Virus record (IMG/VR): IMGVR_UViG_2529292920_000016
Reading direction: 5' to 3' (one strand)
Source: a virus
Taxonomy: Duplodnaviria > Heunggongvirae > Uroviricota > Caudoviricetes
DNA length: 32,229 nt
Part shown: positions 6,901-17,294 of the stretch, one piece after another
How the letters are laid out: each line of letters opens with the position of its first letter
Numbering within the stretch: the first letter of the stretch is position 1
Program-made: the position numbers and the translations under genes
Notes under the pieces: generated by a model
Database searches by the model: none
Told to the model about the DNA's origin: nothing
What the model saw: only the letters and a program-made list of their open reading frames with translations

Positions 6901-7912
6901 AAAGGTGAAAACCGGCAGTTCATCCAGTAAGTCTGTATTGACCTGGCTTGCTGATATGTGCGGTGCCGATTTGTGTGCATACCCGTCTGTATCTGCACTG
7001 GCAGAAGTAACGGAACTGAACAAAAAGACTGTGCAGGACAGCTTACGACACCTGATGGAGATTGGGTTAATTGTTGATACCGGTGAGAGAAAAGGCAGAA
7101 CAAAGCAAATTGTGGTGTACCGACTTATCGGTGTAGAAGAAAGTGTTGCCGAGCCTGAATACACCCAAAAACGGGAGTCTTTAAAGGTGGGTAAAATCGG
7201 TGCTGTTAATAAAAACAGTACCGAAAATGGTTATGTTTCAGCACAAAACAGACCCAAAAACGGAACTCTTAGCTGCATGGAAAATAACCAAAGACACCCA
7301 AATTTTCCATCAAAGACACCCAAAAACGGATCACGGAACCCAAAGGAACCCAAAGAGCTAAACCCCACACATAACGCACGCGAGAGTGCTCCGACCAGTG
7401 AGCAGAAAGTTTTGTCGTTACAGGCTGCACCTCCTGTATTCCTGGATGGCCTGAGCGAACCCATCGAAAAATTTCCGATGACCGATAGCTGGTATTCGTC
7501 ACGGGATTTTCGACGACGGGCTGCGTTGTGGGGGATGGCTTTGCCGGAGACAGAATTCACACCTGCTGAACTTGCCGCCTTCCGGGACTACTGGGCTGCT
7601 GAGGGGAAAGTGTTTACGCAGATTCAGTGGGAGCAGAAATTCGCCCGTCACGTAAATCACGTCAGGGCGCAGGTTAAACCAGTCAGCAAGGGGGTAAACC
7701 ATGCAGCAGCACCAGGTGACACCGCATCACGGGCAGTTCAGGAAATTCGGGCAGCACGTGAGCAGTGGGAACGTGAAAACGGATTTATCAGCGACGGAAA
7801 CGGCCTGGAAGCTGTGGGAACTCATGGGGGAGGTTTATTCGAACCGCTGGACCCAGAAGAACGGGGCCGCACCTTCGAAGCTCTGGATTGCACAGATTGG
7901 TGCGATGACTGA
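6872..7912 (+). CDS. Replication initiator (O-like: N-terminal wHTH, C-terminal DnaT-like domain)
   Basis: ATG 6872 gives MSIDALRWAKKVKTGSSSSKSVLTWLADM..., a wHTH typical of phage replication proteins. DnaT-like block FPMTDSWYSS...FRDYWAAEGKVFTQIQWEQKF. Contains the iteron array. Confidence 0.75.
   Translation: MSIDALRWAKKVKTGSSSSKSVLTWLADMCGADLCAYPSVSALAEVTELNKKTVQDSLRHLMEIGLIVDTGERKGRTKQIVVYRLIGVEESVAEPEYTQKRESLKVGKIGAVNKNSTENGYVSAQNRPKNGTLSCMENNQRHPNFPSKTPKNGSRNPKEPKELNPTHNARESAPTSEQKVLSLQAAPPVFLDGLSEPIEKFPMTDSWYSSRDFRRRAALWGMALPETEFTPAELAAFRDYWAAEGKVFTQIQWEQKFARHVNHVRAQVKPVSKGVNHAAAPGDTASRAVQEIRAAREQWERENGFISDGNGLEAVGTHGGGLFEPLDPEERGRTFEALDCTDWCDD
7161..7357. repeat. Candidate ori iterons inside the initiator gene
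   Basis: The 12-mer ACCCAAAAACGG is exact at 7163-7174, 7252-7263 and 7318-7329. Related copies: AGACACCCAAATTTT at 7292-7306 and GGAACCCAAAGGAACCCAAAG at 7335-7355. An AT-rich stretch at 7177-7248 lies between copies 1 and 2. Confidence 0.65.
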
Positions 7913-8366
7913 GCAGAAAATCCGACAGGTCTGCCGCCAGTGCATGGACCGCTGCCGGGCGGGTGAAACATGGCCTCCGGACCTGGCTGAGTTTGTGGCG
8001 CTGATTTCTGAAAGCGGAGCCAATCCATTCGGTCTGACGGTGGATGCCGTGATGGAGGAGTACCGTCGCTGGCGCAACGAGTCCTGGCGATACGACGGGA
8101 GCGATAAATACCCGTGGTCTCAGCCTGTGCTGTATCACATTTGCCTCGAGATGCGTTCAAAGGGGATTGAGCGGCAGATGACCGAAGGGGAGTTAAAACG
8201 GCTTGCAGAACGGCAGCTGACGAAATGGGCAAAGCATGTTAGTAACGGCCTGAGTGTTCCGCCAGTCCGGCGACAACTGGCGGCACCCAAACGCCCGTCG
8301 GGGCCAACGCCAATTGAGTTGCTGAAACAGGAATATGAACGCCGGAAAGCGGCTGGGCTTGTCTGA
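7701..8366 (+). CDS. Replication protein P-like helicase loader
   Basis: ATG 7701 has AAGGGGG 6 nt upstream. Blocks ETWPPDLAEFVALI and YPWSQPVLYHICLEM align with lambda P as recalled. Overlaps the O-like gene by 212 nt in another frame. Confidence 0.7.
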   Translation: MQQHQVTPHHGQFRKFGQHVSSGNVKTDLSATETAWKLWELMGEVYSNRWTQKNGAAPSKLWIAQIGAMTEQKIRQVCRQCMDRCRAGETWPPDLAEFVALISESGANPFGLTVDAVMEEYRRWRNESWRYDGSDKYPWSQPVLYHICLEMRSKGIERQMTEGELKRLAERQLTKWAKHVSNGLSVPPVRRQLAAPKRPSGPTPIELLKQEYERRKAAGLV

Positions 8367-10993: not shown

Positions 10994-12367
10994 ATGAAAA
11001 GACTATATTATACCCATCATGATAGTCGAACCTTAAAACTTGCTATAGAAGGTGATGTTTCTGATAATGCGAATATTTTTACAGTAATTGTAGGTAAAAA
11101 TGGCGTTGGAAAAAGCAGATTGTTATCTCAGATTGCTAAAGACTGTATTCAAGATATTCATTTCTTGAAAACTTTTAATCCATTATTTGACAGAGAAATA
11201 ACACCAAAGTTAATTGCCGTATCTACCAGCCCATTCGATAAATTCCCTCCAGGGCGTAGGTCATTAAATCACCAAAGGAAAGAAAATAATTATCGCTATG
11301 TGGGTATGCGTGGAGAAGGCCCCTTCGGCGTATCAAATGCCGTATCCCTTTTATCTTCAGCAGCGAGAGGTTGGCTAGAGAAACTTGCTTATTCAGAAAA
11401 TCCTGCAAATTTACTCGATGTTTTTCATTCTATTGATTTTGAGCCCCATATAGAGTTTGTATTTAAACCAACTTACAACGGACCGGACACTCCTGACTAT
11501 AACTTCATTGGTGTATATTCAGATGAGATATTAACGGAAGTTAAGGAGTTATATTTAAAATACAATATAAAAATTGACAGGAAGAATATTGAGAGTCTCT
11601 TAAAGTTAAACTCCGAATCACGTCATGATATTTACGAAGCACTGGTTGAAATTAATCGATTTGAACCTGAACGTAGGGCTGTAACCTTGTCAGTCGATTT
11701 TACCAATGGTGAAACATTGGTTGGCTCGACTTATGCGAATAATTATTTTTCTAGATCAATTCTTAAACTTATGAACGCTGGCTTCATGAGATTGATGGAT
11801 ATGCGACTCATAAAAAAAAGCTATGGTCCCATGTCACTTAAACGTGCGAGCTCGGGAGAACAATGTTTATTAGTGATGTTGCTTGGAATTGCAGGGCATA
11901 TAACTGATGGTTCTATAATACTAATTGATGAACCGGAAATAAGCTTGCATCCTCGATGGCAGGAAGAGTTTATCATTATGTTAACAAAAGCATTTTTAAC
12001 TTACTCAGGTTGTCAATTCATAATTGCAACTCATTCACCACAAATAATATCCAATTTGCCGAATAAAGGTTGTTATATAACATCTTTGTCGAAAAGTTAT
12101 CTTTATAAAGCAAAATACTTTAGCAACCGGTCTGCAGACTATCAACTTGCGGAACTATTTGATGCCCCTGGCATTATGAATGAATACATTGCCAGATTAG
12201 CTTTCAATTTACTTTCAAAAGTTAAGACTGCTAAGTTAGTAACAGATGATAATTGGCGTGAATTAAAACAACTCCAGCTTCTCCTTGAAAACGTTAATAG
12301 TAATGACCCTATTAATGAACTCGTAAATTCCGTATCTCAGGTGTGTGAAATTTATGCCAAAAATTAA
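10994..12367 (+). CDS. ABC/SMC-type ATPase, Septu PtuA-like
   Basis: Walker A GKNGVGKS (aa 34-41), signature-like ASSGEQ, Walker B IILIDEPEISLH and ATHSPQ His-loop. There is a long helical insert between Walker A and the signature. AT-rich. Confidence 0.8.
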   Translation: MKRLYYTHHDSRTLKLAIEGDVSDNANIFTVIVGKNGVGKSRLLSQIAKDCIQDIHFLKTFNPLFDREITPKLIAVSTSPFDKFPPGRRSLNHQRKENNYRYVGMRGEGPFGVSNAVSLLSSAARGWLEKLAYSENPANLLDVFHSIDFEPHIEFVFKPTYNGPDTPDYNFIGVYSDEILTEVKELYLKYNIKIDRKNIESLLKLNSESRHDIYEALVEINRFEPERRAVTLSVDFTNGETLVGSTYANNYFSRSILKLMNAGFMRLMDMRLIKKSYGPMSLKRASSGEQCLLVMLLGIAGHITDGSIILIDEPEISLHPRWQEEFIIMLTKAFLTYSGCQFIIATHSPQIISNLPNKGCYITSLSKSYLYKAKYFSNRSADYQLAELFDAPGIMNEYIARLAFNLLSKVKTAKLVTDDNWRELKQLQLLLENVNSNDPINELVNSVSQVCEIYAKN

Positions 12368-12983
12368 AAATCCAATTAGATTCAGCGCAGAGTCATTAGA
12401 TATTATTGAGAAAAAATTGTCTTCTCCAGATTTTAAGCATACCAACTGGGGAGATGATGATTTGCAAGTTCTCCGTGCAGAAATTAGAAATCATTACAGA
12501 GAAGAACAAAAGCTAGAATGTGTATATTGTCATGAGCCTATTGGGGTAAGAGCTGCACAAGCTGCTCCTATAGAGCATATTGTGCCAAAATCTCAATATC
12601 TATGTTTTATTTTTGAACCTAAGAATCTATGTGTAGTATGTCCTGACTGCAATGAATTCAAAGGTAAAAATGAAGTGTTATTTGAACCCGTAATAAATGG
12701 GGGGCGGCGCAAAAACTATCCAACTGCATCTGCATCATTTCGCATCGTTCATCCACATATAGATGATTATGAGATGCATATTATAAAAGCAAATCGTGTT
12801 TATGTGGACAAAACACCTAAAGGGCACTATACCATTGGAATATGTAAACTAAATAGATTTTTTCATTATTTTGGGATGTGTGATGAATTTGTTAATGATG
12901 CAAAAATTGCTGAGGCAAATGAAAATTTTTTCAAAAAGGTAGTATTACTACTAATGAATTATTGGATGATGACATTCATTTGA
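12354..12983 (+). CDS. HNH endonuclease, Septu PtuB-like
   Basis: ATG 12354 (or GTG 12345) overlaps the ATPase stop. HNH motif: CVYCHEP...IEHIVPKS...NLCVVCPDCNEFKG. Confidence 0.8.
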   Translation: MPKIKNPIRFSAESLDIIEKKLSSPDFKHTNWGDDDLQVLRAEIRNHYREEQKLECVYCHEPIGVRAAQAAPIEHIVPKSQYLCFIFEPKNLCVVCPDCNEFKGKNEVLFEPVINGGRRKNYPTASASFRIVHPHIDDYEMHIIKANRVYVDKTPKGHYTIGICKLNRFFHYFGMCDEFVNDAKIAEANENFFKKVVLLLMNYWMMTFI

Positions 12984-13242: not shown

Positions 13243-14331
13243 TCATGCTAGACACATGTAGGTTAGCCTCTTACGTGCCGGAAGGCAAGGAGATGTATGG
13301 GTCCACCACATATTGCAATTTTTATTCTCTTTTAAAATATATTCCACGGGCGTCATTAGTGCGAGCGCCTTGTGGGGTCTTTTGCTGTTATACAGCACCA
13401 GATATTCCGCCAGCTTCTGGTTAAATAGCGCCAGATCTTCAAAGAGTAAAATCTCATTAAATTCAATAAACTGCTCTCTTAACGTCCGGTTAAAACGTTC
13501 ACAGATAGCGTTCATTTTTGGCGTGTAGGGATAGGTCCAGAGGTGTTTGATAGCGGCTTCCTGCAGCGTTTTGTCGAAGTTTCCCAGGAACTCTTTTCCG
13601 TTATCTGTGATTATCTGGCTGATACCGACCGGGAACAACCGGGCTGCGCGGCTGAAGAAGTGATTGACGATATCACTGTTGAGTGACGGCACAGCCAGCG
13701 CCAGCGCGTAATTGCTGCATTCGTCGATCATGGTGATGACATAGCGACGCAGTTCGCCCATTCTGAGCTCAATGGCGTCCATCCCAATGAGCTCACCTGT
13801 CTTTACCGGGCGGTAGTGCTTTGGCCTGCGGGGTTTGGCAGACCGCTTTTTGACAAGCAGTGCCTTCCCCCGCGATCCCAGACGCACAGGTATCATCCGC
13901 ATTTTATCATGTGCGGCAGCGATCATTCTGCCGATGGTGGAAACACTCGGACAGGCCAGATAGCGCTGTTCGCACCAGGGCTTCAGGCGAACAAAAATCT
14001 GCTCTTTACCGAGGTTCGGCAGCTCTGTCCTGAGGCGTCGAATCTCTTTCAGCACATCGGGATGCCAGTGTTTTTTTCGTCGCACCAGAGGTGCCTTACT
14101 GTGCGGGATTAGCCCCTCAGGTCCTTCCTTGTTCAGTAACTGACGCCACCAGTAAAGCGTGCGGCAGGACACGCCAAAGGCTTCAGAAGCTGCAGAAATA
14201 CCGTGTTTATCCCAGAAGTGCAGAGCCTTCATTCTCATTGTTGCTATATCAGCCATCACTGAAAGCCTCAACGCATAATCGGCCGTTTGGTAGTACTTAG
14301 GATAGCCAACCATCAGATGCTGCATTTGCAT
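13243..14331 (-). CDS. DDE (rve-type) transposase, IS481-like single-ORF architecture
   Basis: 362-aa ORF with an N-terminal HTH. DDE candidates are GMDAIE, ITDNGKEF and NAICERFNRTL. The family guess is from architecture only. Confidence 0.75.
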   Translation of the reverse strand: MQMQHLMVGYPKYYQTADYALRLSVMADIATMRMKALHFWDKHGISAASEAFGVSCRTLYWWRQLLNKEGPEGLIPHSKAPLVRRKKHWHPDVLKEIRRLRTELPNLGKEQIFVRLKPWCEQRYLACPSVSTIGRMIAAAHDKMRMIPVRLGSRGKALLVKKRSAKPRRPKHYRPVKTGELIGMDAIELRMGELRRYVITMIDECSNYALALAVPSLNSDIVNHFFSRAARLFPVGISQIITDNGKEFLGNFDKTLQEAAIKHLWTYPYTPKMNAICERFNRTLREQFIEFNEILLFEDLALFNQKLAEYLVLYNSKRPHKALALMTPVEYILKENKNCNMWWTHTSPCLPARKRLTYMCLA

Positions 14332-14774: not shown

Positions 14775-15026
14775 ATGATGAACATCGAAGAACTGCGTAA
14801 AATTTTTTGTGAAGATGGCCTCTATGCTGTGTGCGTTGAAAATGGAAATCTTGTTAGTCATTACCGCATTATGTGTTTGCGAAAGAATGGGGCTGCGTTA
14901 ATTAATTTTGTGGATGGTCGAGTGACAGACGGATTTATCTTGCGCGAAGGTGAGTTTGTCACTTCATTACAGGCACTGAAAGAGATCGGAATAAAAGCAG
15001 GCTTTTCAGCTTTTGCAGAAGAATAA
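14775..15026 (+). CDS. rem: Rem-like small nin-region protein
   Basis: 83-aa ORF with a GGAAGG RBS. Its position next to hokD and upstream of ydfU is as in Qin. Identity to Rem is from memory. Confidence 0.6.
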   Translation: MMNIEELRKIFCEDGLYAVCVENGNLVSHYRIMCLRKNGAALINFVDGRVTDGFILREGEFVTSLQALKEIGIKAGFSAFAEE

Positions 15027-15092: not shown

Positions 15093-15371
15093 ATGGCACG
15101 CAACGTAAAATATTACAATTCTGATAATTCGCCCGTTCTTGCCTGCACGCACGAGCGGTATTCTCACGCATTCAAGTCTGAATGGTTCCAACACCCTCCA
15201 TGTACTGAAGAGCAGGCTGAATGGACAATTCAGTGTTACCGCAGGCGCGGATACGAGGTTAAGAAAGCCCTCAGCCTCGATTATCGTCACTGGATAATCT
15301 ATGTCAGGCTCCCTTATTCCGAACGCTCACCGCGCCCATCCCGCACATACCAGCAACGGATCTGGAGGTAA
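15093..15371 (+). CDS. Hypothetical 92-aa protein
   Basis: GGAGAA RBS before ATG 15093. Its last codons contain the GGAGG RBS of the next gene, so the two are translationally coupled. No family recognised. Confidence 0.55.
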   Translation: MARNVKYYNSDNSPVLACTHERYSHAFKSEWFQHPPCTEEQAEWTIQCYRRRGYEVKKALSLDYRHWIIYVRLPYSERSPRPSRTYQQRIWR

Positions 15372-15372
15372 C

Positions 15373-16431
15373 GTGCGGATATTACTTCGACCTGTTCTGG
15401 TACCGGAACTTGGGCTGGTGGTCCTTAGGCCGGGCCGTGAATCCATGCAAGTATTTCATAACCCTCGAGTGCTGGTGGAGCCTGAACCGAAAAGCATGCG
15501 CGGTCTGCCGTCCGGAGTCGTCCCTGCCGTTCGCCAGCCGCTGGCGGAGGATAAATCATTACTGCCATTTTTCAGCGATGAGCGGGTGATTCGTGCTGCT
15601 GGCGGCGCTGGGGCACTGTCTGACTGGCTGTTGCGTCATGTCAAATCCTGCCAGTGGCCTCATGGTGACTATCATCACAGTGAAATCGTCATACATCGTT
15701 ACGGTACCGGCGCGATGGTGTTGTGCTGGCACTGCGACAACCAGTTGCGTGACCAGACATCCGAATCACTCGGGCAACTTGCTCATCAAAACCTGTCAGC
15801 ATGGATGATTGACGTCATACGCCATGCAGTGAATGGCACGCAGGAGCGGGAATTATCGCTGGCTGAATTGTGCTGCTGGGCTTCTGTAAATGATGTAGTG
15901 GATGCCATGACCGAAAATATGGCGCGTCGAATCCTGAAGCTTCCGGGTGAAAAAATCCGCTCAGTATACCGCGAGAGCGACATCGTACCGGGAGAGCAGA
16001 CCGCCATCAGCATACTGAAGCAGCGCACAAAAAATATTGCGCCGTTGCCTCACGCCCACCAGCAACAGAATCCACCACAGGAAAAGACGGTGGTCAGCAT
16101 TGCCGTTGATCCGGAGTCACCGGCTCAGTATCTCCAGCGCCAGAAACCACAACGGGAAGAGATGCCTGTATACACGCGCTGGGTAAAAACGCAGAAATGC
16201 ATGACGTGTGGCAATCAGGCAGATGATCCGCATCACATCATTGGTCATGGACTGGGAGGGATGGGAACAAAGGCTGATGATTTGTTTGTTATTCCGCTGT
16301 GCCGTAAATGCCATAGCGAACTACACGCCGGGGTAAAAGATTTTGAAGAAAAACACGGCAGCCAGCTGTTGTTGCTGATTCGTTTTTTAATGCACGCGAG
16401 AAATTCGGGTGTCCTGAAGTGGAAAGCATGA
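15373..16431 (+). CDS. ydfU: YdfU-like DUF968 protein with HNH-like Cys/His module
   Basis: GTG 15373 follows GGAGG. The N-terminus VRILLRPVLVPELGLVVL matches YdfU as recalled. C-terminal motif: CMTCG...DDPHHIIGHG...IPLCRKCHSELH. Confidence 0.75.
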   Translation: MRILLRPVLVPELGLVVLRPGRESMQVFHNPRVLVEPEPKSMRGLPSGVVPAVRQPLAEDKSLLPFFSDERVIRAAGGAGALSDWLLRHVKSCQWPHGDYHHSEIVIHRYGTGAMVLCWHCDNQLRDQTSESLGQLAHQNLSAWMIDVIRHAVNGTQERELSLAELCCWASVNDVVDAMTENMARRILKLPGEKIRSVYRESDIVPGEQTAISILKQRTKNIAPLPHAHQQQNPPQEKTVVSIAVDPESPAQYLQRQKPQREEMPVYTRWVKTQKCMTCGNQADDPHHIIGHGLGGMGTKADDLFVIPLCRKCHSELHAGVKDFEEKHGSQLLLLIRFLMHARNSGVLKWKA

Positions 16432-16797
16432 ATGACTGAACGCATAGAATTTGTTTTGCCTTACCCGCCAACGGTGAACACTTACTGGCGACGTCGTGGC
16501 AGCACATATTTTGTATCAAAAGCCGGTGAGCGTTATCGCCGTGATGTGGCGCTTATTGTTCGCCAGCAGCGGCTGAAATTAAACCTGTCCGGAAGGCTGG
16601 CGATAAAGATTATTGCAGAGCCACCGGATAAACGTCGTCGTGACCTGGACAATATCCTGAAAGCACCACTGGATGCGCTGACGCATGCCGGACTTCTCAT
16701 AGACGACGAGCAGTTTGATGAAATCAATATTGTGCGCGGTCAGCGCGTTCCTGGGGGGCGGCTGGGCGTGAAGATTTACAAAATTGAGAGTGAGTGA
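16432..16797 (+). CDS. rusA: RusA Holliday-junction resolvase
   Basis: The ATG directly follows the ydfU TGA. Motifs YPPTVNTYW and DKRRRDLDNILKAPLDAL are typical of RusA. Confidence 0.9.
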   Translation: MTERIEFVLPYPPTVNTYWRRRGSTYFVSKAGERYRRDVALIVRQQRLKLNLSGRLAIKIIAEPPDKRRRDLDNILKAPLDALTHAGLLIDDEQFDEINIVRGQRVPGGRLGVKIYKIESE

Positions 16798-17294
16798 TCG
16801 TAAATATGATATATCCGGAAATTACAGGCAAAAGCGGCGAGCATTTACGTCTAAAAACGCTGGAAGCCGTCTGGATCCAGGGGAAATTACGGATGTGGGG
16901 GCGTTGGTCGTATATAGGTGGTGGCAAACCAGGAAATATGTTCAATCAGTTGCTGGCATCCAAAAAACTGACAAAAACCGCGGTCAATGAAGCCCTGCGT
17001 AGAATCAGGGAGTCAGGGATTGATAAACCAGAGCTGGAAGCATTCTTGCGAGAGATGATCGCTGGCAGACAGAAGAGCTGGTTGTCTCACTGTACTGATG
17101 CAGAGGCGTTACGCATTGATGGGGTGATAAGTAAAGCGCTTGCACGTTATCCTGGATTGATTGATATCCTGCGGCAAAGGTACGAAGGGCGGGGGATGAG
17201 TAAACGCAAAATGGCTGAATTGTTGAATGAGGTTCACCCTGAGTGGTGCTATGCAATGCCGCAATCGTATAGATATGTGGCTGAGAATAGCTGA
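16794..17294 (+). CDS. Late antiterminator Q-like protein (3' end apparently frameshifted)
   Basis: GTG 16794 overlaps the rusA stop; ATG 16806 is an alternative. The LRMWGRWS block resembles QuuD-type Q. The expected C-terminal helix RNRIDMWLRIAEFILYPLMRDAFSFTDA lies in another frame (17260-17346). Confidence 0.6.
   Translation: MIVNMIYPEITGKSGEHLRLKTLEAVWIQGKLRMWGRWSYIGGGKPGNMFNQLLASKKLTKTAVNEALRRIRESGIDKPELEAFLREMIAGRQKSWLSHCTDAEALRIDGVISKALARYPGLIDILRQRYEGRGMSKRKMAELLNEVHPEWCYAMPQSYRYVAENS

What the first reader, a model, noticed from the sequence alone, without database searches (positions are those of the whole stretch)
15093..16797. Tightly coupled orf92-YdfU(DUF968)-RusA block; YdfU carries a duplicated HNH-like Cys/His module
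- **Coupling:** the orf92 stop (15369-15371) overlaps the GGAGG RBS of GTG 15373. The ydfU TGA abuts the rusA ATG. The rusA stop overlaps the Q start (GTGA). Four genes are therefore read as one coupled unit.
- **Internal duplication:** YdfU contains two related modules. The first is SDWLLRHVKSCQWPHGDYHHSEIVIHRYGTGAMVLCWHCDNQL. The second is TRWVKTQKCMTCGNQADDPHHIIGHGLGGMG...VIPLCRKCHSELH. Both follow the pattern W..C..(D)xHH..I.H..G..LC..C..L, which is consistent with a His-Me/HNH-type zinc module present twice. The N-terminal copy looks degenerate.
- **Why it matters:** DUF968 has no assigned function as far as I know. It occupies the NinG/Rap position next to a resolvase, and orf92 has no family I recognise.
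Basis: partly seen in the sequence, partly recalled or inferred. Interest (0 to 1): 0.5.

Follow-up and report, generated by a model that had tools for sequence, protein, structure and literature searches.

The report
Prophage YdfU nuclease–RusA gene block
This is a common, already annotated lambdoid-prophage gene cluster (small protein, YdfU HNH nuclease, RusA resolvase, Q antiterminator); YdfU's second Cys/His motif is a real, conserved, probably zinc-binding module, but nothing shows it is a duplicated nuclease domain.

Summary
The window is a lambdoid prophage of E. coli O127:H6 E2348/69 (99.9% identical). All four genes are already annotated there: a hypothetical protein, a DUF968 protein, RusA and a DUF1133 Q-like protein.

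**Coupling.** orf92→ydfU (GGAGG-TAA-C-GTG) and ydfU→rusA (TGAATG) are confirmed. The Q gene more likely starts at ATG 16806, 8 nt after the rusA stop, not at the overlapping GTG.

**orf92 (phrog_1212).** It is confined to Enterobacteriaceae prophages and is almost always followed by ydfU.

**Verdict.** This is an ordinary nin-region recombination cassette. The duplication claim is unproven.

The parts
15093..15371 (+). orf92: small basic protein (pI 9.6). Core aa 27-92 = phrog_1212. The N-terminal 26 aa are an Escherichia-only, fast-diverging extension.
   Evidence: PGAP WP_012578887; phrog_1212, 2.8e-34; 339 clusters, Enterobacteriaceae only, no Pfam.
15364..15375 (+). Coupling junction GGAGG-TAA-C-GTG. 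The last two orf92 codons (TGG AGG, Trp-Arg) form the Shine-Dalgarno sequence of ydfU.
   Evidence: sequence. (conserved in Escherichia; Klebsiella has TGGAGGGAyTGATG). (same 4-nt gap in 80/80 loci).
15373..16431 (+). ydfU-family gene (352 aa, GTG start), 100% identical to database entries annotated as DUF968 domain-containing or phage protein.
   Evidence: (phrog_96 full length, 2e-162).
15373..15846 (+). YdfU N-terminal domain (aa 1-158). It matches no Pfam family (phrog_11007 covers aa 2-134) and occurs only at the N-terminus of YdfU-type proteins.
   Evidence: 175 clusters at 50% identity; AF2 pLDDT 89.5.
15649..15747 (+). N-domain Cys/His module (aa 93-125): C93-Q94, H101, hairpin β105-110/β113-118, C118-W-H-C121-D122-N123 at the helix start. 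Inferred structural zinc site of treble-clef type.
   Evidence: secondary structure. (C93, Q94, C118 100%; position 101 H/C 99/101; position 121 C/H 100%; quartets CHCC 81, CHCH 9, CCCH 9).
15850..16158 (+). Helical and linker region (aa 160-262), the first part of the Pfam DUF968 match. aa 190-250 are low-confidence or disordered.
   Evidence: DUF968 aa 160-344. (pLDDT below 50 for aa 228-244).
16159..16407 (+). C-terminal HNH / His-Me finger (aa 263-345). Zinc ligands C276, C279, C310, C313. Catalytic H287/H288 at the end of β1, D303, H314, H318.
16432..16797 (+). rusA: RusA-family Holliday-junction resolvase. Its ATG abuts the ydfU TGA.
   Evidence: PF05866, 4.9e-16; phrog_34.
16806..17294 (+). 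Q-like antiterminator (DUF1133 / Phage_antitermQ). The likely start is ATG 16806. Its C-terminus is frameshifted in this window by a 2-bp deletion relative to E2348/69.
14775..15026 (+). rem: the conserved upstream neighbour in Escherichia (context only).

Best explanation
The block is the distal end of the early-right ('nin') operon of a lambdoid prophage. It is a DNA-recombination and DNA-processing cassette sitting just before the late-gene antiterminator Q.

**Shown**
- orf92, ydfU and rusA are translationally linked by stop/start juxtaposition.
- YdfU is a two-domain protein.
- Its C-terminal domain is a complete zinc-stabilised HNH (His-Me finger) of the DUF968/HNHc_6 type. It is homologous to ΦNM1 Gp16 and structurally closest to P1 Ref and YbcO.
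- RusA carries the RusA family signature.

**Inferred**
- The N-terminal domain binds a structural zinc through C93, H101, C118 and C121 in a ββα (treble-clef-like) module.
- That domain is not a nuclease centre. It more likely serves substrate or partner recognition, taking the place of the NinB/Orf-like domain of Gp16 or the basic N-terminal tail of Ref.
- YdfU nicks recombination or replication intermediates (D-loops or branched DNA, possibly RecA-bound). RusA then resolves the resulting Holliday junctions. Together they support recombination-dependent phage replication.
- The small basic Orf92 is an accessory factor of YdfU, made in a fixed ratio through coupling.

Whether the N module descends from an HNH duplication cannot be decided from the present data.
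For: - Identity and annotation.
- Domain calls: DUF968 1.5e-62; HNHc_6 above cut-off; RusA; DUF1133; phrog_96 'HNH endonuclease', full length.
- Catalytic and zinc residues are 98-100% conserved.
- ΦNM1 Gp16 (ABF73046) is HNHc_6 plus DUF968 by Pfam. It aligns with the YdfU HNH at 37% identity over 59 aa with the same CxxC...H...CxxHH...H skeleton. It is an early-expressed nickase that interacts with RecA, and RecA enhances its cleavage (PMC12817073).
- DUF968 neighbours RusA and Q, and is fused to Erf, Rad52 or RusA in other phages (PMC5714182 and PMC4118853).
- Context in 80 species-level loci: Q-type gene directly downstream in 77; RusA-type gene within the flank in 54 (21 adjacent); orf92-like in 22.
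- orf92→ydfU linkage: 80/80 and 77/79 loci.
- N-domain zinc quartet with covarying Cys/His and predicted ββα.
Against: - There are no experimental data for YdfU, Orf92 or the N-domain.
- P1 PdcB, a family member, is non-essential and of unknown function.
- RecA dependence and substrate preference are extrapolated from relatives that share only the roughly 60-80 aa HNH core.
- Some family members (P1 PdcB, P0315, P0339, P0374) have a catalytically dead HNH but an intact N-domain. The family's core role may therefore not be DNA cleavage.
- RusA is absent from 26/80 loci, and only 3/80 have it downstream as here. The YdfU-RusA partnership is frequent but not obligatory.
- Zinc binding by the N module is inferred from conservation and a predicted model, without coordinates in hand.
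Confidence: 0.6

Rival explanations
1. YdfU arose by internal duplication of an HNH module. The N-terminal copy is an inactivated His-Me finger that pairs with the active C-terminal one as a single-chain pseudo-dimer.
For: - Both modules have the same order of elements: helix with W, Cys knuckle, His pair, β-hairpin, L-C-x-x-[C/H]-[H/D], helix.
- D122 occupies the position equivalent to metal-binding H314.
- Every hhalign run returns this same co-linear register as its best path.
Against: - The N-module HH precedes β1 and acts as a ligand (H/C alternation). The hairpin is tight rather than carrying the long HNH loop. No conserved His ends β1.
- A treble-clef zinc finger would give the same skeleton without common descent.
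Confidence: 0.2
2. The conserved N-domain, not the nuclease, is the functional core of the family. YdfU/PdcB proteins would then act in the early-to-late switch, by DNA or protein binding linked to the late activator encoded immediately downstream, with the HNH as a dispensable add-on.
For: - A late-gene activator follows directly in 77/80 lambdoid loci. These belong to at least four different Q families. In P1, pdcB is followed by lpa.
- Dead-HNH members keep all N-domain invariants.
- Jablonska et al. list a member annotated as a 'phage transcriptional regulator'.
Against: - The position may only reflect being the last early gene.
- The catalytic HNH is intact in 98/101 members.
- No DNA-binding or regulatory fold was detected.
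- P1 pdcB knock-down and knock-out give no phenotype.
Confidence: 0.1
3. orf92-YdfU is a defence or addiction pair: a nuclease toxin plus a small immunity or regulator protein used for superinfection exclusion or host killing.
For: - A small protein is coupled to a nuclease.
- The prophage carries other conflict modules nearby: hokD and Septu PtuAB.
- Gp16 overexpression is toxic.
Against: - There is no PADLOC match for Orf92, YdfU or RusA.
- 58/80 YdfU loci lack orf92, so it cannot be an obligatory antidote.
- The operon position is that of lytic-cycle early genes.
Confidence: 0.07
4. YdfU is a packaging-associated HNH that assists terminase in cos cleavage, like HK97 gp74.
For: HNH nucleases commonly have this role in phages (PMC12817073 introduction).
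Against: - The gene lies in the early region about 12 kb upstream of the terminase genes, which are at roughly window 28.4-30.9 kb.
- It lies upstream of Q in 77/80 loci, not next to terS or terL.
Confidence: 0.02

Closest known systems
E. coli K-12 YdfU (Qin prophage) / Pfam DUF968 (His-Me finger group 7 of Jablonska et al. 2017, PMC5714182)
   Same: Same family and architecture. The window protein scores 211 bits on PF06147 and is 76-78% identical to the 348-aa form that carries the same rem-orf92-ydfU context (L005-L008; that this form is the K-12 Qin type is from memory, not checked). The neighbours RusA and Q were already noted in the literature.
   Different: Nothing essential. Published classifications describe only the C-terminal His-Me finger. 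The N-terminal 158-aa domain and the orf92 partner are not described in the papers found.
Staphylococcus phage ΦNM1 Gp16 (ABF73046; HNHc_6/DUF968), a RecA-dependent nickase (PMC12817073)
   Same: Homologous HNH core (37% identity over 59 aa, E 1e-8). Same CxxC...H...Cxx[C/H]H...H skeleton. Both match PF16784 and PF06147. Both are early-operon genes of a temperate phage that also encodes RusA.
   Different: The N-terminal domain of Gp16 is NinB/Orf-like. YdfU instead has an unrelated Cys/His domain (no 1PC6 hit) plus a roughly 100-aa linker. RecA dependence has not been tested for YdfU.
Phage P1 Ref (PDB 3plw), a RecA-dependent HNH endonuclease
   Different: No Pfam RecA_dep_nuc hit for YdfU. 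Ref has a disordered basic N-terminus rather than a folded zinc domain.
YbcO (DLP12 / phage 82; DUF1364; PDB 3g27)
   Different: YbcO is a 96-aa single domain with no N-terminal domain. Its function is equally untested.
Phage λ Rap (NinG), a structure-specific HNH-type endonuclease
   Same: Same genomic position (distal nin region before Q) and same presumed role on branched recombination intermediates.
   Different: No PF05766 match. Different architecture. The analogy is positional only.
Phage P1 PdcB (unknown function, non-essential)
   Same: Full-length homologue (about 26% identity over aa 32-348) with an identical N-domain signature. It also sits directly before the late activator (lpa) and after a small ORF (pdcA).
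   Different: Its HNH is catalytically dead: HH becomes PY, and the positions of H314 and H318 are lost. PdcA is unrelated to Orf92 (hhalign P 0.83).

Membership tests
Pfam DUF968 (PF06147) | Score above the gathering threshold (27.8 bits) | tested here: met
   211.1 bits, E 1.5e-62, aa 160-344.
Pfam HNHc_6 (PF16784) | Score above the gathering threshold (26.6 bits) | tested here: met
   29.7 bits, covering only profile positions 119-184 of 204, i.e. the HNH core. The NinB-like part of the model is not matched.
His-Me finger / HNH nuclease: C-terminal module | ββα fold with a catalytic His at the end of β1 and metal-binding His/Asn on the helix | tested here: met
His-Me finger / HNH nuclease: C-terminal module | Structural zinc site: CxxC ... 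Cxx[C/H] | tested here: met
   C276, C279, C310 and C/H313 are 98-100% conserved.
His-Me finger / HNH nuclease: C-terminal module | Metal-dependent DNA cleavage | not testable with these tools
   Requires biochemistry.
His-Me finger / HNH nuclease: N-terminal module | ββα fold | tested here: met
   Predicted β105-110, β113-118, helix 119-125, pLDDT 94-97. This is a prediction only.
His-Me finger / HNH nuclease: N-terminal module | Catalytic His at the end of β1 | tested here: not met
   Position 108 is M/L/H/T/F. The HH pair lies before β1, and H101 alternates with Cys like a zinc ligand.
His-Me finger / HNH nuclease: N-terminal module | Detectable sequence or structural similarity to known HNH domains | tested here: inconclusive
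Internal duplication within YdfU | Significant similarity between the two halves | tested here: not met
   BLASTP E 8.9. hhalign P 0.09-0.45. Direct 3-D superposition was impossible because model coordinates are not exposed.
RecA-dependent nucleases (P1 Ref type) | Ref-like HNH core | tested here: met
RecA-dependent nucleases (P1 Ref type) | Cleavage requires or is stimulated by RecA filaments | not testable with these tools
   Extrapolated from Ref and Gp16.
RusA resolvase (PF05866) | Family HMM above threshold, plus the acidic signature | tested here: met
   59.9 bits vs 22.8. The DLDN...DALT...DDEQ motifs are visible in the translation.
λ Rap / NinG (PF05766) | Family HMM match | tested here: not met
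   No hit at E ≤0.1. It is only a positional analogue.
Q antiterminator (DUF1133 / Phage_antitermQ) | Family HMM match over the full length | tested here: inconclusive
   PF06576 298 bits, but only profile positions 1-151 of 176. The C-terminus is lost to a 2-bp deletion relative to the reference.
phrog_1212 (Orf92) | Profile match | tested here: met
   2.8e-34, aa 27-92 vs profile 1-66 of 66. The function of the family is unknown.
Known anti-phage defence systems (PADLOC) | Match of Orf92, YdfU or RusA to any defence model | tested here: not met
   0 families for each.

The most novel reading that the evidence does not exclude
The N-terminal domain of YdfU/PdcB proteins is an ancient, inactivated (or non-canonically active) His-Me-finger paralogue. 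It forms a single-chain pseudo-dimer with the C-terminal HNH. Together with the small partner Orf92, it directs strand-specific nicking of RecA-bound or branched DNA just before the switch to late gene expression. This would be a previously undescribed architecture for phage recombination nucleases. It would also explain why the N-domain is kept even where the C-terminal HNH is dead.
Probability: 0.12. Interest if true: 0.5.

Novelty: already known. Interest (0 to 1): 0.2.

Why it matters
**Why the block itself adds little**
- It occurs in most E. coli genomes: 4562 of 5426 complete genomes have a match.
- It is already annotated.
- The YdfU HNH domain was already classified.
- A relative, ΦNM1 Gp16, now has a demonstrated RecA-dependent nickase function.

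**What is of modest use**
- There is a clear, testable definition of an unannotated 158-aa zinc-type N-terminal domain. It is shared by lambdoid YdfU and P1 PdcB, and it is the most constant part of the family.
- A narrow small-protein family (Orf92/phrog_1212) appears strictly tied to ydfU.

If the N-domain proved to be a pseudo-nuclease partner or a RecA/DNA-branch recognition module, it would help explain how phage HNH nickases are targeted.

Tried and rejected
**Tests for similarity between the two halves**
- BLASTP of the N half against the C half: nothing.
- hhalign of N, middle and C sub-alignments, with 22 and then 101 sequences, in local, global and low-mact modes: never significant.

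**Searches for relatives of the N-domain**
- PDB sequence search with the N-domain profile: only spurious CFAP115.
- Pfam scan of 22 N-domains at E ≤10: unrelated single hits.
- The afdb50 Foldseek library was unavailable.

**Orf92**
- No Pfam, NCBIfam, PADLOC or PDB match.
- It is unrelated to P1 PdcA.
- Its structure could not be predicted because both prediction slots went to YdfU.

**Other points**
- ATG 15301 as the ydfU start was rejected.
- GTG 16794 as the Q start was rejected in favour of ATG 16806.
- Many 'fusion' proteins carrying the N-domain (P0253-P0266, joined to tail-fibre, portal or other sequences at the same breakpoints) were judged to be assembly or gene-calling chimeras and ignored.
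- The first related-loci run with the 22-sequence alignment failed for lack of a conserved stretch. A 9-sequence alignment worked.

Full report
**Origin and annotation.** The 2.6-kb stretch around the finding is 99.9% identical to E. coli O127:H6 E2348/69 (NC_011601.1). Related sequence occurs in 4562 of 5426 complete E. coli genomes. It lies in a lambdoid prophage inserted next to potC. PGAP annotates, in order: hokD, rem, a hypothetical protein (orf92, WP_012578887), a DUF968 protein (WP_012578888, GTG start), a RusA-family resolvase and a DUF1133 protein. The ORFs in the window agree with this.

**Coupling.** GGAGG (15364-15368) is formed by the last two orf92 codons (TGG AGG). It is followed by TAA, one base, and GTG 15373. 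The junction is conserved in Escherichia and Shigella, and takes the form TGGAGGGAyTGATG in Klebsiella. All 80 IMG/VR loci with the 92-aa form have the same 4-nt gap. GTG 15373 is the correct start, because phrog_96 position 1 and all diverse homologues (MRxLL...) align there. The ydfU TGA (16429-16431) abuts the rusA ATG (16432). The rusA TGA does overlap a GTG (16794). However, PGAP, Pfam DUF1133 and phrog_753 all begin at ATG 16806, 8 nt downstream. Three genes are therefore stop/start-coupled, and the fourth is merely close.

**YdfU C-terminal domain.**
- Pfam gives DUF968 (aa 160-344, 1.5e-62) and HNHc_6 (aa 267-328, above threshold).
- An AlphaFold2 model built on 22 diverse sequences (pLDDT 85.6) shows β285-288, β306-309 and helix 311-319.
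- C276, C279, C310, C/H313, H287, H288, D303, H314 and H318 are conserved in 98-101 of 101 family members.
- This is the His-Me finger already described for YdfU by Jablonska et al. 2017, who also noted RusA and Q as neighbours.
- Curtis et al. 2014 noted DUF968 fusions to Erf, Rad52 and RusA.
- A relative has since been characterised. ΦNM1 Gp16 is an early-expressed nickase that interacts with RecA, and RecA enhances its cleavage. I identified it as ABF73046. It is HNHc_6 plus DUF968 by Pfam. Its HNH aligns with that of YdfU at 37% identity, E 1e-8, with the same ligand and catalytic skeleton.

**YdfU N-terminal domain.**
- Residues 1-158 have no Pfam or NCBIfam match. They correspond to phrog_11007.
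- An exhaustive phmmer search found 175 clusters at 50% identity, always at the N-terminus of roughly 320-370-aa proteins. Many longer 'fusions' are evident chimeras.
- Across 101 non-identical members, C93, Q94 and C118 are invariant, and N140, W169, W119 and D122 nearly so. Position 101 is H (90) or C (9). Position 121 is C (82) or H (19). The quartets are CHCC (81), CHCH (9) and CCCH (9). This Cys/His interchange is typical of a structural metal site.
- AF2 models of the full protein and of the domain alone (pLDDT 89.5) place C93 and H101 in a loop. A tight hairpin β105-110/β113-118 follows, ending in C118. A helix then starts W119-H120-C121-D122-N123. This is a ββα, treble-clef-like arrangement.

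**Is it a duplicated HNH?**
- Sequence tests are negative: BLASTP, and hhalign P 0.09-0.45 with 22 or 101 sequences.
- No HNH Pfam model touches any of 22 N-domains at E ≤10. A profile search of the PDB is empty.
- Foldseek against BFVD gives nothing below E 0.15.
- The N-module 'HH' precedes β1 and behaves as a ligand. No conserved His ends β1. The long HNH loop is absent.
- The module is therefore best described as a zinc ββα domain of unresolved origin that lacks a nuclease centre. I could not superpose the two modules because coordinates are not exposed.
- Three representatives and P1 PdcB have a dead C-terminal HNH yet keep every N-domain invariant. The N-domain is thus the most constant part of the family, not a decaying copy.

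**Orf92.**
- The core (aa 27-92) matches phrog_1212. The first 26 residues are an Escherichia-specific, variable extension.
- The family comprises 339 clusters at 90% identity. All are 'hypothetical', none has a Pfam match, and all come from Enterobacteriaceae. The protein is basic (pI 9.6).
- In IMG/VR, 80/80 loci with the 92-aa form are followed by ydfU. Of 79 informative loci with the 66-aa form, 55 have ydfU directly downstream and 22 have a RusA-family gene in between.
- Conversely, only 22 of 80 species-level ydfU loci carry it. Orf92 depends on YdfU, but YdfU does not depend on Orf92.

**Context across Enterobacterales (80 loci).**
- A late-gene antiterminator lies within 200 nt downstream of ydfU in 77 loci. 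These are Phage_antitermQ 30, Antiterm 16, DUF1133 10, Phage_antiter_Q 9, and an unassigned family in the same position 12.
- A RusA-type gene is in the flank in 54 loci: 18 adjacent upstream, 3 adjacent downstream as here, and the rest within 2 kb upstream. The window's order is one permutation of a recurrent module.
- Upstream alternatives are Rha/ANT, KilA-N, LexA-DBD proteins and DNA methyltransferases.
- In P1 the homologue pdcB likewise sits directly before the late activator lpa. It is non-essential.

**Mechanism.** The most likely reading is a recombination and DNA-processing cassette expressed late in the early phase.
- YdfU nicks branched or RecA-bound DNA through its HNH.
- Its zinc N-domain provides targeting. 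Orf92 may assist in this.
- RusA resolves junctions.
- The fold, motifs, homology and linkage are shown. The substrates, RecA dependence, zinc binding and the Orf92-YdfU interaction are inferred.

**Verdict.** The 'duplicated HNH' interpretation is not established. The N-domain and its Orf92 partner are modestly interesting, undescribed details of a known family.

Noticed in passing
window 10994-12983 (+): A Septu type I defence pair sits inside the prophage early-right region: PtuA (10994-12367, PADLOC PDLC00283, 1.9e-165) and PtuB HNH (12345-12983, PDLC00325, 5.7e-82). PGAP calls them only 'AAA family ATPase' and 'HNH endonuclease'.
   Followed up: partly
window 17255-17256 (Q-like gene 16806-17294): The window has a 2-bp deletion relative to both E2348/69 assemblies (reference ...TGCAACATGCC...). 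This frameshifts the C-terminus of the DUF1133 Q-like protein: 162 aa instead of 180, with Pfam profile positions 152-176 lost. It could be a strain variant, a pseudogene or a sequencing error.
   Followed up: partly
L243:2405-3448 (phage P1 pdcB); P0315, P0339, P0374: P1 PdcB and related Vibrio and Cronobacter phage proteins are full-length YdfU homologues. Their C-terminal HNH has lost the catalytic histidines (HH becomes PY, YQ, YL or FM) and the GGMGTK loop. Both Cys/His quartets and all N-domain invariants are kept. They are likely pseudo-nucleases.
   Followed up: partly
L002-L081 (3' of the ydfU homologue); L243:3537-3989: YdfU-family genes are almost always the gene immediately before the late-gene activator. 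That activator is Q from at least four unrelated families in 77/80 lambdoid loci, and Lpa in P1. The positional constancy across different activator families is unexplained.
   Followed up: partly
window 13243-14331 (-): An IS481-family transposase is inserted between the Septu pair and hokD/rem, on the opposite strand to the early operon. It may interrupt read-through transcription into rem-orf92-ydfU.
   Followed up: no
window 15093-15170 (orf92 aa 1-26): The Escherichia form of Orf92 has a 26-aa N-terminal extension that is absent from the 66-aa forms in other genera, where the Met start corresponds to F27. The extension diverges much faster than the core.
   Followed up: partly
L013, L019, L022, L030, L038, L044, L048, L049, L055, L058, L074 (gene directly 3' of ydfU, about 200 aa): An unassigned family of about 200 aa ('c10', e.g. 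MTPRQRRNHLEALGKAAIAPRKSW...) occupies the Q position in 12/80 loci and has no Pfam match. It may be a further antiterminator family.
   Followed up: no
P0253-P0266, P0282 (protein database entries): Many database 'proteins' join the first ~115-270 residues of a YdfU homologue (the N-domain, with part of the linker in some) to tail-fibre, portal, Q or other phage sequences at recurrent breakpoints. These look like assembly or gene-calling chimeras rather than real domain fusions.
   Followed up: no
L242:4052-4723 and 7706-8113 (phage ΦNM1): ΦNM1 Gp16 (HNHc_6/DUF968 nickase) and a RusA gene lie in the same early operon about 3 kb apart. This mirrors the YdfU-RusA association seen in enterobacterial prophages.
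   Followed up: no
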